Below are positions 37,434 through 40,400 of a stretch of 64,000 bases of DNA, piece by piece. The position numbers are program-made. The stretch is from Escherichia coli (lineage in GTDB: Bacteria > Pseudomonadota > Gammaproteobacteria > Enterobacterales > Enterobacteriaceae). The stretch is taken from the NCBI RefSeq assembly GCF_041886205.1, contig NZ_CP169029.1. One strand, given 5' to 3'. The number at the start of each line of letters is the position of its first letter. The stretch's first letter is position 1.

Positions 37434-40400
37434 TAAGTGAACTGGCGCAGAATCGTCTGGCTATTGGCGTTGGTTACTCTGCCAACGCTTGCGGAGGAGA
37501 CGCCGTTACAACTGGTGCTGCGCGGTGCGCAGCACGATCAACTGTATCAGCTGTCGTCATCAGGCGTGACCAAAGCCTCGACATTACCTGACACGCTCAC
37601 CACGCCGTTAGGGAGTTTGTGGAAACTGTATGTTTACGCCTGGCTGGAGGATACCCATCAACCGGAGCAGCCCTACCAGTGTCGCGGAAACTCCCCGGAA
37701 GAGGTTTATTGTTGTCAGGCTGGGGAGAGCATAACGCGCGATACCGCGCTGGTACGTTCCTGTGGGCTCTATTTTGCGCCGCAGCGGTTGCATATTGGCG
37801 CAGATGTGTGGGGGCAATACTGGCAACAGCGTCAGGCACCTGCGTGGTTAGCGTCTCTTACTACGCTGAAGCCAGAAACCTCGGTAACGGTTAAATCGCT
37901 GCTTGATTCATTAGCGACGTTACCTGCGCAAAACAAAGCTCAGGAAGTCTTACTGGATGTGGTGCTGGACGAGGCGAAAATCGGTGTCGCATCCATGCTC
38001 GGTAGTCGGGTACGGGTGAAAACCTGGAGCTGGTTTGCCGATGATAAACAGGAAATCCGTCAGGGTGGTTTTGCCGGCTGGTTAACCGATGGTACACCGC
38101 TGTGGGTGACTGGCAGTGGCACCAGCAAAACGGTACTGACCCGTTATGCGACGGTGCTTAATCGGGTTTTGCCAGTGCCGACACAAGTTGCCAGTGGGCA
38201 ATGTGTAGAGGTGGAGCTATTTGCCCGCTATCCGCTGAAGAAAATCACAGCGGAAAAGAGTACGACGGCAGTAAAACCCGGCGTACTTAATGGGCGCTAT
38301 CGTGTGACGTTCGCCAATGGTAACCACATTACGTTTGTCAGCCACGGTGAGACGACCTTACTGAGCGAAAAGGGCAAACTGAAATTGCAGTCGCATCTCG
38401 ATCGTGAAGAGTATGTTGCCAGAGTTCTTGATCGCGAGGCGAAAAGTACGCCACCTGAGGCAGCGAAAGCCATGACCGTGGCGATACGCACTTTTTTACA
38501 GCAAAACGCCAATCGGGAAGGCGATTGCCTGACCATCCCTGACAGCAGCGCCACGCAGCGTGTTTCTGCTTCGCCAGCGACCACGGGGGCGCGAACGATG
38601 ACCGCCTGGACGCAGGATCTCATCTATGCGGGCGATCCGGTTCATTATCACGGCAGTCGCGCTACCGAAGGGACGCTTTCCTGGCGGCAAGCCATGGCCC
38701 AGGCGGGGCAGGGAGAGCGTTACGACCAGATACTCGCGTTTGCTTATCCCGACAACAGCCTTAGCCGCTGGGGAGCTCCACGCTCAACCTGCCAGTTATT
38801 ACCCAAAGCGAAAGCCTGGCTGGCGAAAAAAATGCCGCAGTGGCGGCGTATATTACAAGGCGAGACGGGGTACAACGAACCAGACGTGTTTGCGGTCTGT
38901 CGTTTAGTCTCAGGTTTCCCCTATACCGATCGGCAGCAGAAACGGCTGTTTATTCGTAACTTCTTTACGCTTCAGGATCGGCTGGATTTAACCCATGAGT
39001 ATCTGCACCTGGCCTTTGATGGTTATCCCACCGGGCTTGATGAGAACTATATCGAAACGCTGACCCGACAATTATTAATGGACTAATGCTATGCGAAAGA
39101 TTTTTCTTCCGTTGTTACTGGTGGCGCTTTCGCCTGTCGCTCACAGTGAAGGTGTGCAGGAAGTCGAGATTGATGCACCGCTCTCTGGCTGGCATCCGGC
39201 AGAGGGCGAAGATGCCAGTTTTTCACAATCGATCAATTACCCGGCGTCGTCCGTCAACATGGCAGATGATCAAAATATCTCAGCGCAGATCCGCGGCAAA
39301 ATAAAGAATTATGCTGCGGCGGGTAAAGTTCAGCAGGGCCGGCTGGTGGTCAACGGTGCCAGTATGCCGCAGAGAATTGAATCCGATGGTTCATTTGCAC
39401 GCCCTTATATTTTCACTGAAGGCAGCAACAGCGTGCAGGTCATCAGCCCGGATGGGCAAAGCCGACAAAAAATGCAGTTTTACTCAACGCCGGGTACAGG
39501 AACGATTCGTGCACGTTTACGGCTGGTTCTCTCGTGGGATACGGACAATACCGATCTCGATCTCCATGTTGTCACGCCCGATGGCGAACACGCCTGGTAC
39601 GGTAACACGGTGCTGAAAAACAGTGGTGCACTGGATATGGATGTCACGACGGGGTACGGCCCCGAGATTTTCGCCATGCCAGCGCCAGTTCACGGACGCT
39701 ATCAGGTGTATATCAACTACTATGGCGGACGCAGCGAAACGGAATTAACCACCGCCCAACTGACGCTGATCACCGATGAAGGATCGGTCAATGAGAAACA
39801 GGAAACATTTATTGTACCGATGCGTAATGCTGGCGAGCTGACGCTGGTGAAAAGTTTTGACTGGTGAGCCATCCCTTCACACAACCTGGCTCTTTCTTTT
39901 TTCAGATAAGACTGCTGGGCGATCTGCCGACGCCAGGATATAACCATTAACAAGCGTCGGCAGATTGGTCATTTCTTATTTTTCGTACTGAGAACTGTCC
40001 ATTTACTCCGGCTTTCCTGGTTAAGGCAATGGTTTCTAAGCGATACGCATTATTGCAATGGTGACAGAACATTGCGGTAACACGCTTTTACCGCTACCTT
40101 AACCACACTCCATCGGTCACCTGAGGCGGAGCTTCGCCCCTTTGAAATACCTTGCTTCTTTTCGTACAACCCTGAAAGCCTCGCGCTACATGTTCAGAGC
40201 ATTGGCGTTAGTGCTCTGGCTGTTGATTGCCTTTTCATCCGTTTTTTACATCGTTAATGCGTTACATCAGCGAGAATCGGAAATTCGTCAGGAATTTAAT
40301 CTGAGTTCCGATCAGGCTCAGCGCTTTATTCAACGCACCTCTGATGTGATGAAAGAGCTGAAGTACATCGCCGAAAATCGCTTATCGGCAGAAAACGGTG

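What the first reader, a model, noticed from the sequence alone, without database searches (positions are those of the whole stretch)
37434..40144. Non-ATG initiation codons in several genes
By my reading, yfaQ starts with GTG directly after the yfaS TAA, rcsC starts with TTG, napF starts with GTG (the only start codon after an in-frame TGA) and ccmA starts with GTG. Weak start codons for a sensor kinase and accessory subunits fit low-stoichiometry expression and translational coupling. The same pattern is seen at the other tightly packed junctions: glpB/glpC ATGA, nrdB/yfaE, napD/napA, napH/napB, ccmA/ccmB and ccmC/ccmD.
Basis: seen in the sequence. Interest (0 to 1): 0.15.

Follow-up and report, generated by a model that had tools for sequence, protein, structure and literature searches.

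The report
Ordinary non-ATG start codons in E. coli
Four genes in this stretch of E. coli chromosome do begin with GTG or TTG instead of ATG, but this is already in the curated annotation and no more frequent than the genome average, so the finding is ordinary; the only mildly notable point is that the TTG start of the stress sensor gene rcsC never changes across 80 related species.

Summary
The window is an E. coli chromosome segment, 100% colinear with strain wlxctx60.

**Observation.** The six tight junctions are also correct: five ATGA overlaps and one TGATG. K-12's curated annotation gives the same four starts.

**Frequency.** 4-5 non-ATG starts among 49 genes is at or below the E. coli baseline of 9-17%.

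**The four genes differ in status:**
- **rcsC TTG** is invariant in 80/80 Enterobacteriaceae species, although every fourfold site examined varies. The downstream ATG (codon 17) is present in only 8/80. A published N-terminal peptide, MKYLASFR, confirms the TTG start.
- **ccmA GTG** is kept in five genera, with synonymous GGN variation at codon 2. The ATG at codon 3 is lost in Leclercia.
- **napF GTG** is the only possible start in E. coli but is derived. Seven other genera use ATG one codon downstream.
- **yfaQ GTG** is the only start that gives a signal peptide. Relatives keep the tight junction but mostly use ATG.

**Interpretation.** "Weak starts tuned for low stoichiometry" is plausible for rcsC and ccmA, and unsupported for napF and yfaQ.

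**Verdict.** Already known, low interest.

The parts
37434..37436 (+). yfaS (alpha-2-macroglobulin family) stop codon TAA, same frame as yfaQ
37426..37431 (+). Shine-Dalgarno-like AGGTGA for yfaQ, inside the yfaS 3' end, 5 nt before the GTG
   Evidence: duplex dG -5.4 kcal/mol, close to the window median of -6.1
37437..39086 (+). yfaQ CDS (549 aa). The GTG start at 37437-37439 is the first codon after the yfaS stop. The N-terminus MNWRRIVWLLALVTLPTLA has the form of a signal peptide.
   Evidence: There is no in-frame ATG in the first 100 codons.
40128..40131 (+). GGAG Shine-Dalgarno core for rcsC, 10 nt before the TTG. It sits in a small hairpin, GGCGG/AGCT/TCGCC, at 40125-40138.
   Evidence: GGCGGAG is kept in most of the 80 species.
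40142..42991 (+). rcsC CDS (949 aa). The TTG start is at 40142-40144.
   Evidence: TTG in 80/80 species. N-terminal peptide MKYLASFR in PMC13245402 Table S1.
40190..40192 (+). In-frame ATG at rcsC codon 17, the rejected alternative start
   Evidence: No SD (dG -0.1). ATG in only 8/80 species and Leu/Phe elsewhere.
55963..55965 (+). In-frame TGA upstream of napF. There is no start codon between it and the GTG.
55967..55972 (+). GGAAGG Shine-Dalgarno for napF
   Evidence: dG -6.2; conserved across genera
55978..56472 (+). napF CDS (164 aa). The GTG start is at 55978-55980. The first internal Met is residue 119.
61816..61818 (+). napC stop codon TAA, 12 nt before the ccmA GTG
61820..61823 (+). 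AGGG Shine-Dalgarno-like element, 7 nt before the ccmA GTG and 13 nt before the ATG at codon 3
61831..62454 (+). ccmA CDS (207 aa). The GTG start is at 61831-61833. An alternative ATG at 61837-61839 (codon 3) would give 205 aa.
8205..8208 (-). glpB stop / glpC start overlap, ATGA
18806..18810 (-). nrdB stop / yfaE start, TGATG, sharing base 18808
56722..56725 (+). napD stop / napA start overlap, ATGA
60757..60760 (+). napH stop / napB start overlap, ATGA
62451..62454 (+). ccmA stop / ccmB start overlap, ATGA
63889..63892 (+). ccmC stop / ccmD start overlap, ATGA

Best explanation
These are four genuine, already annotated non-AUG initiation codons in an ordinary E. coli chromosome segment, present at the genome's usual frequency. 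fMet-tRNA initiates at GUG or UUG next to a Shine-Dalgarno element, less efficiently than at AUG. In reporter assays these codons gave 10-100% of the AUG level.

The four genes do not share one history.
1. rcsC uses a UUG that purifying selection has held fixed across Enterobacteriaceae. This most likely keeps synthesis of the hybrid sensor kinase low. The selection is shown here; its purpose is inferred.
2. ccmA uses a GUG conserved in at least five genera. It lies 12 nt after the napC stop, so ribosomes finishing napC can reinitiate there. The coupling is inferred.
3. napF uses a GUG only because the Escherichia lineage lost the ancestral AUG one codon downstream (ATG to AAG) and the preceding in-frame GUG took over.
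4. yfaQ uses a GUG that abuts the yfaS stop (TAAGUG). The tight junction with the alpha-2-macroglobulin gene is the conserved feature. The codon identity is not.

The ATGA and TGATG junctions are the commonest operon overlaps and all use AUG.
For: Positions and codons. The same starts appear in the curated K-12 annotation.

Baseline:
- 83/14/3% AUG/GUG/UUG in E. coli, and GUG/UUG at 10-100% of AUG (Hecht et al., bioRxiv 10.1101/063800).
- About 88% ATG (PMC9825163).
- 91% ATG among proteomically verified starts (PMC13245402).
- The binomial test shows no enrichment.

rcsC:
- TTG in 80/80 species from more than 20 genera.
- Among 73 ungapped sequences, codon 1 TTG and codon 2 AAA are invariant, while 0/62 fourfold sites and 0/23 invariant-Leu codons are invariant. 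Codons 3-16 vary mainly at synonymous third positions.
- No shared upstream in-frame start exists.
- An SD is present for the TTG and absent for ATG17.
- The N-terminal peptide MKYLASFR was detected, with Ribo-RET (retapamulin ribosome profiling) support.

ccmA:
- GTG is followed by GGT, GGA, GGC, GGC or GGG in five genera.
- C. rodentium has an in-frame 3-nt insertion.
- Leclercia has CGA in place of the ATG.
- Salmonella has an in-frame stop immediately before the GTG.

napF: 7/7 other genera have ATG at the codon aligned with the E. coli AAG.

yfaQ:
- It is the only start that gives a signal peptide.
- The junction with the A2M gene is -4 to +3 nt in three distant relatives, with GTG in one and ATG in two. 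A fourth relative also uses ATG but has an esterase gene inserted in between.
- E. whittamii is identical at the junction.

Overlaps: 4-nt overlaps are about 45% and 1-nt overlaps about 15% of all prokaryotic same-strand overlaps (PMC3887535).
Against: - No direct experimental start-site evidence was found for yfaQ, napF or ccmA. They are absent from the N-terminomics table. The INRI-seq (cell-free translation initiation site (TIS) profiling) table of annotated TISs is truncated in the held copy.
- For ccmA both the GTG and the ATG are invariant in the E. coli strains sampled. One strain has a non-synonymous GGT to AGT change at codon 2. Dual initiation cannot be excluded.
- The purpose of the rcsC TTG, low expression, is inferred. 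GTG would be about equally weak yet never appears, so 'weak start' alone does not fully explain the invariance.
- The comparative sets for napF and ccmA are small (7 and 5 other genera).
Confidence: 0.85

Rival explanations
1. Mis-annotation. The true starts are in-frame ATG codons a few codons downstream (rcsC codon 17, ccmA codon 3), and the GTG/TTG calls are artefacts of longest-ORF annotation.
For: Both genes have a nearby in-frame ATG. Many gene callers produce a 205-aa CcmA starting MLEAR. The Met before LEAR is kept in E. coli, Salmonella, C. rodentium and Intestinirhabdus. PGAP does make such errors nearby: its GTG start for yfaS cuts the signal peptide.
Against: rcsC: ATG17 is absent in 72/80 species, has no SD, codons 2-16 evolve as coding sequence, and the peptide MKYLASFR was observed. 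ccmA: Leclercia has no ATG there while the GTG is kept, codon 2 shows four synonymous Gly codons, and the SD lies 7-9 nt from the GTG against 13-15 nt from the ATG. napF and yfaQ have no downstream ATG within 100 codons.
Confidence: 0.07
2. One reading: all four weak codons are tuned by selection for low stoichiometry of a sensor kinase and of accessory subunits, and work together with translational coupling.
For: The rcsC TTG and ccmA GTG are conserved. GUG and UUG initiate less well than AUG. yfaQ and ccmA lie 0 and 12 nt after the upstream stop codon.
Against: napF uses ATG in all 7 other genera examined, with the same operon and the same accessory role. YfaQ relatives mostly use ATG. napF and rcsC are first cistrons, so coupling cannot apply to them. 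Non-ATG starts are not enriched among the window's 49 genes. Many accessory subunits here, such as napD, napG, napH, ccmB, ccmD and yfaE, start with ATG. The general trend in prokaryotes is selection towards AUG (PMC5622118).
Confidence: 0.1
3. Pure drift. None of the four codons is selected as such. They are neutral outcomes of interchange among ATG, GTG and TTG.
For: Frequency is at baseline. The napF and yfaQ start codons differ among relatives.
Against: rcsC shows 80/80 TTG with every fourfold site in the same alignment variable, which is incompatible with neutrality at that codon. The ccmA GTG is kept in five genera while the adjacent third positions vary.
Confidence: 0.05

Closest known systems
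Curated E. coli K-12 MG1655 annotation of rcsC (b2218), napF (b2208), ccmA (b2201) and yfaQ (b2226)
   Same: Identical start codons, upstream context and protein lengths: TTG/949 aa, GTG/164 aa, GTG/207 aa and GTG/549 aa. The rcsC TTG is listed as a database-annotated TIS with peptide and Ribo-RET support.
   Different: The window comes from a strain with an intact yfaS and no ato operon between yfaP and rcsC. This does not alter any of the four starts.
Classic weak-start regulatory genes of E. coli (lacI GTG, cya TTG), recalled from my own knowledge and not tested here
   Same: A low-abundance regulatory protein is made from a non-AUG codon. Conservation of the rcsC TTG fits the same logic.
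   Different: For lacI and cya the effect of changing the codon to ATG was measured experimentally. No such measurement was found for rcsC.
infC and pcnB AUU starts (non-canonical starts confirmed in E. coli)
   Same: A sub-optimal initiation codon is retained by a specific gene.
   Different: Those are AUU codons, and infC has a known IF3 feedback mechanism (my own knowledge). The codons here are the ordinary GUG and UUG, and no feedback is known.
Translationally coupled overlapping cistrons (ATGA and TGATG junctions, as in the trp operon; the trp example is my own knowledge)
   Same: All lie inside known operons (glp, nrd, nap, ccm).
   Different: Dependence of downstream translation on upstream translation was not tested. 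The yfaS/yfaQ junction is a 0-nt abutment (TAAGTG) in the same frame, not an overlap.

Membership tests
Bacterial non-AUG (GUG/UUG) initiation codon | The codon is GTG or TTG, in frame with the protein, with no upstream in-frame start before a stop codon | tested here: met
   All four are the first ATG/GTG/TTG after an in-frame stop (sequences). For rcsC there is no shared upstream start in 80 species.
Bacterial non-AUG (GUG/UUG) initiation codon | A Shine-Dalgarno element lies at a workable distance | tested here: met
   Duplex energies are yfaQ -5.4, rcsC -7.5 (with a long 10-11 nt spacer), napF -6.2 and ccmA -3.3 (weak). The window median for ATG genes is -6.1.
Bacterial non-AUG (GUG/UUG) initiation codon | No better downstream in-frame ATG could be the real start | tested here: met
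   yfaQ and napF have none within 100 codons. rcsC ATG17 is not conserved and has no SD. ccmA ATG3 is absent in Leclercia and codon 2 evolves synonymously. Some uncertainty remains for ccmA.
Bacterial non-AUG (GUG/UUG) initiation codon | Direct evidence of initiation: an N-terminal Met peptide or an initiating-ribosome footprint | tested here: inconclusive
   Met for rcsC only: peptide MKYLASFR plus Ribo-RET (BL21) in PMC13245402 Table S1. Nothing was found for yfaQ, napF or ccmA.
Start codon maintained by selection as a weak codon | The same non-AUG codon is kept across species whose neutral sites are saturated | tested here: inconclusive
   Met for rcsC: 80/80 TTG, 0/62 fourfold sites invariant. 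Largely met for ccmA: GTG in 5 of 6 genera. Not met for napF: ATG in 7/7 other genera. Not met for yfaQ: ATG in 3 of the 4 distant family representatives.
Translationally coupled cistron pair | Same strand, same operon, stop and start overlapping or within a few nucleotides | tested here: met
The A2M/YfaQ junction is -4 to +3 nt in three distant relatives.
Translationally coupled cistron pair | Translation of the downstream gene depends on translation of the upstream gene | not testable with these tools
   This needs premature-stop or start-knockout constructs in the upstream gene with a reporter on the downstream gene.

The most novel reading that the evidence does not exclude
The rcsC initiation region, TTG AAA TA, is under unusually strict, codon-specific selection. 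Across 80 Enterobacteriaceae species it never switches to ATG, nor even to the similarly weak GTG, although every fourfold-degenerate site in the same alignment has changed and the 10 nt just upstream vary. This would mean the UUG itself, and not merely 'a start codon', is a functional setting of the Rcs envelope-stress phosphorelay. It could fix a low RcsC:RcsD:RcsB ratio, or make RcsC synthesis sensitive to initiation-factor (IF3) status.
Probability: 0.5. Interest if true: 0.3.

Novelty: already known. Interest (0 to 1): 0.1.

Why it matters
It matters little. The result confirms that the annotated starts of four E. coli genes are sound. It also shows that a cluster of GTG/TTG starts and ATGA junctions in a 64-kb read is simply normal operon architecture.

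Three small practical gains came out of the check:
- There is comparative evidence for choosing the 207-aa (GTG) model of CcmA over the 205-aa model that many gene callers emit.
- The PGAP start of yfaS in this strain (GTG 32922) is probably wrong.
- The rcsC TTG is a clean example of a non-AUG start held fixed by selection. This runs against the general prokaryotic trend towards AUG and could be tested by a simple codon swap.

Tried and rejected
1. A CcmA homologue search meant to sample other genera returned 120 near-identical E. coli/Shigella sequences and two aberrant Salmonella models. It showed only that 207-aa and 205-aa models coexist.
2. A degenerate DNA pattern for CERDERTLF, scanned in metagenome contigs, gave 19 loci. 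Only four were ccmA, all marine relatives at about 48% identity with different N-termini, so they say nothing about E. coli.
3. Salmonella protein P0002 led to the second, tor-linked ccm cluster. There the sequence upstream of MLEAR is unrelated (ATGACAATGATG), so it is not comparable.
4. PDB entries of CcmA use the 207-aa database sequence. That reflects construct design, not the native start.
5. The supplement of the Ribo-RET preprint is not held. The INRI-seq table of annotated TISs is truncated before these genes.
6. I examined a hairpin around the rcsC SD as a possible conserved translational brake. It exists in Escherichia, Citrobacter, Salmonella and Leclercia but not in Klebsiella, Kosakonia or Cedecea, so I do not claim it as a feature.
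7. The rcsC loci were checked for the yfaS/yfaQ junction. Only E. whittamii carries it next to rcsC.
8. I considered and rejected enrichment of non-ATG starts in the window.
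Full report
**What the window is.** The 64-kb window is E. coli chromosome. It is 100% identical and colinear with strain wlxctx60 (NZ_AP045833.1, reverse strand). I mapped that genome's PGAP annotation onto window coordinates. The region runs yfaY, glpTQ/ABC, nrdAB-yfaE, yfaL, gyrA, yfaATSQP, rcsC, rcsBD, ompC, ada-alkB, mqo, napFDAGHBC, ccmABCD. Relative to K-12 it is inverted, has an intact yfaS, and lacks the atoSCDAEB operon between yfaP and rcsC.

**Checking the observation.**
- The yfaS stop TAA (37434-36) is followed in the same frame by GTG (37437-39).
- rcsC begins with TTG at 40142-44.
- napF begins with GTG at 55978-80. It follows an in-frame TGA at 55963-65, and the four codons between them (TGG AAG GTC AAT) cannot initiate.
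- ccmA begins with GTG at 61831-33, 12 nt after the napC TAA.
- PGAP places the starts at these positions, and the curated K-12 record has the same four codons in the same context.
- The six junctions are as described: ATGA at glpB/glpC, napD/napA, napH/napB, ccmA/ccmB and ccmC/ccmD, and TGATG at nrdB/yfaE.
- All six downstream genes start with ATG. These junctions therefore illustrate tight packing, not non-ATG initiation.
- The stated coordinates bracket only the yfaQ and rcsC starts.

**Is it more than chance?** It is not.
- PGAP gives 44 ATG, 4 GTG and 1 TTG among 49 CDS.
- One of the four GTGs, yfaS at 32922, is probably a mis-call (see "Seen in passing").
- Published baselines for E. coli are 83/14/3% ATG/GTG/TTG, about 88% ATG, and 91% ATG among proteomically verified starts.
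- Four or five non-ATG starts in 49 genes compares with an expectation of 4.4-8.3, and no binomial tail is remarkable.
- Counting all same-strand overlaps in the window gives six of 4 nt, two of 1 nt, two of 11 nt and one of 14 nt. Four-nucleotide and one-nucleotide overlaps are the two commonest classes in prokaryotes, at about 45% and 15%.

**rcsC.**
- I fetched the rcsC 5' region from 80 species-level genomes of more than 20 Enterobacteriaceae genera.
- Codon 1 is TTG in 80/80. Codon 17 is ATG in only 8 (Escherichia and Superficieibacter lineages) and Leu or Phe in the other 72.
- Among 73 ungapped unique sequences (72-99% nucleotide identity to the window), TTG and the following AAA are invariant.
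- In the same sequences, none of 62 fourfold-degenerate sites and none of 23 invariant-leucine positions keeps a single codon.
- Codons 3-16 vary mainly at third positions, as coding sequence does.
- There is no shared upstream in-frame start.
- The TTG has an SD (GGAG, dG -7.5, spacer 10-11 nt). ATG17 has none (-0.1).
- A 2026 N-terminomics study lists the peptide MKYLASFR (residues 1-8, start codon TTG, NC_000913:2319874-2319876), with Ribo-RET and elongation-profile support.
- The TTG start is therefore settled. Its invariance shows codon-specific purifying selection, against the general prokaryotic tendency to favour AUG.

**ccmA.** An ATG lies two codons downstream (GTG GGT ATG CTT...). 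Public protein sets contain both 207-aa and 205-aa models.
- Within E. coli both codons are invariant in the variants sampled. Codon 2 is GGT, or AGT in one strain.
- Anchoring on NapD gave nap-ccm loci from other genera.
- The frame reads GTG GGA ATG in Salmonella, with a TGA immediately before the GTG.
- It reads GTG GGC AGT ATG in Citrobacter rodentium, which carries an in-frame 3-nt insertion.
- It reads GTG GGG ATG in Intestinirhabdus.
- It reads GTG GGC CGA CTT in Leclercia, which has no ATG at all.
- Shimwellia has a different, longer ATG-initiated N-terminus.
- Four synonymous glycine codons at position 2, an in-frame indel, loss of the ATG in one genus, and an SD 7-9 nt from the GTG (13-15 nt from the ATG) together favour the GTG. 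I put this at about 0.8. Some use of the ATG as well cannot be excluded.

**napF.** In E. coli the GTG is the only possible start, because the next in-frame Met is residue 119, beyond the first iron-sulphur motifs. It is not conserved.
- In Salmonella, C. rodentium, Leclercia, Buttiauxella, Shimwellia, Intestinirhabdus and Enterobacter Cy-643 the gene starts ATG G(T/C)N... at the codon aligned with the E. coli AAG (codon 2).
- The codon aligned with the E. coli GTG is ATC, GCC, CTT, GTC, GTG or CCA in those genera.
- The E. coli GTG is therefore a derived rescue after loss of the ancestral ATG. It is not an ancient design feature of an accessory subunit.

**yfaQ.** The GTG is the first codon after the yfaS stop, and there is no ATG in the next 100 codons.
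- Only this start yields the N-terminus MNWRRIVWLLALVTLPTLA, which has the form of a signal peptide.
- E. whittamii has the same TAAGTG.
- I examined four distant family representatives at 40-50% identity.
- In three of them the DUF2300 gene abuts or overlaps the alpha-2-macroglobulin gene: +3 nt with GTG, -1 nt with ATG, and -4 nt with ATG.
- In the fourth an esterase gene is inserted between the two, and the start is ATG.
- The conserved feature is the tight junction, which is compatible with coupling. The GTG is not conserved.

**How it works.**
- Shown here: four GUG/UUG codons with SD elements serve as the starts. rcsC is confirmed by peptide evidence, and the other three rest on sequence logic and comparison.
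- Established knowledge: fMet-tRNA reads GUG and UUG at reduced efficiency, 10-100% of AUG in reporters.
- Inferred: the rcsC UUG is kept to hold RcsC synthesis low.
- Inferred: the ccmA GUG and yfaQ GUG are reached mainly by ribosomes terminating 12 and 0 nt upstream.
- Inferred: the napF GUG is a historical accident.

**Comparison with what is known, and novelty.** Everything in the finding is in the curated K-12 annotation, and the rcsC start is also in published proteomic data. I rate it "already known" and of low interest. The only item a specialist might not expect is the absolute invariance of TTG AAA TA in rcsC, including the absence of GTG. Low expression alone does not fully explain that.

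**Seen in passing.**
- An ATG kept 13-16 nt upstream of the napF start in six genera.
- A probable PGAP mis-call of the yfaS start.
- The ato-operon deletion, with a remnant of atoS.
- Inconsistent eco starts between annotations.
- A duplicated, tor-linked ccm cluster in Salmonella.

Details are in the noticed-in-passing list.

Noticed in passing
window 55962-55988: An ATG (ATGATGGAAGG in E. coli) sits 13-16 nt upstream of the napF start and contains the napF Shine-Dalgarno sequence. In E. coli, Salmonella, C. rodentium and Leclercia it opens a 7-8 codon out-of-frame uORF that ends at a TGA overlapping the first few codons of napF (codons 3-4 in E. coli). In Shimwellia and Intestinirhabdus the same ATG is in frame, 5 codons upstream. 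ATGGAAG(G/A) is kept in six genera. INRI-seq lists in-vitro alternative initiation sites for napF at ATG -16 and ATG +10, with no in-vivo signal (PMC9825163 Table S3). Its function is unknown. It could be a leader ORF that competes with or feeds the weak GTG.
   Followed up: partly
window 32817-32930: PGAP starts yfaS at GTG 32922. That start has no Shine-Dalgarno sequence (dG +0.6) and cuts the signal-peptide-like stretch [22 protein letters not shown] in half. The curated K-12 start corresponds to ATG 32832 (MDTQRF..., SD GAAGGA, dG -5.5) and overlaps the yfaT 3' end by 67 nt. The PGAP call looks wrong, so one of the five 'non-ATG' starts in the automatic annotation is probably ATG.
   Followed up: partly
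window 39868-40141: The atoSCDAEB operon, which separates yfaP and rcsC in K-12, is absent here. A 68-nt stretch (39893-39960) still matches the 5' part of atoS at 78% identity. About 123 nt upstream of rcsC are shared with K-12 at 91%. 1540 of 5426 complete E. coli genomes have the contiguous yfaQ-yfaP-rcsC arrangement.
   Followed up: partly
window 40125-40149: The rcsC SD (GGAG) lies in a 5-bp hairpin, GGCGG-AGCT-TCGCC. The hairpin is present in Escherichia, Citrobacter, Salmonella and Leclercia but not in Klebsiella, Kosakonia or Cedecea. By contrast, TTGAAATA (codons 1-3) is invariant in all 73 sequences while positions -1 to -10 vary. Why GTG never replaces TTG is unexplained.
   Followed up: partly
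window 55083-55592 (minus strand): The eco (ecotin) start differs between automatic annotations of near-identical sequence: 169 aa in strain wlxctx60 against 162 aa in K-12 and strain PT62. There are two in-frame ATGs 7 codons apart.
   Followed up: no
L086 7480-7530 (Salmonella): Salmonella carries a second ccm cluster next to tor-like and cytochrome c peroxidase genes. Its ccmA overlaps the upstream gene (ATGACAATGATGCTT) and offers three ATG starts. The duplication boundary lies right at the ccmA start. The two Salmonella CcmA proteins returned by the search (306 and 309 aa) contain internal duplications and look like assembly or annotation artefacts.
   Followed up: no
window 14015-15085 (minus strand) and 15551-17771: Between glpQ and inaA this strain has a frameshifted hypothetical gene, a LysR regulator and an MFS transporter. 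These are reduced to fragments in strain PT62. It is a variable island unrelated to the finding.
   Followed up: no
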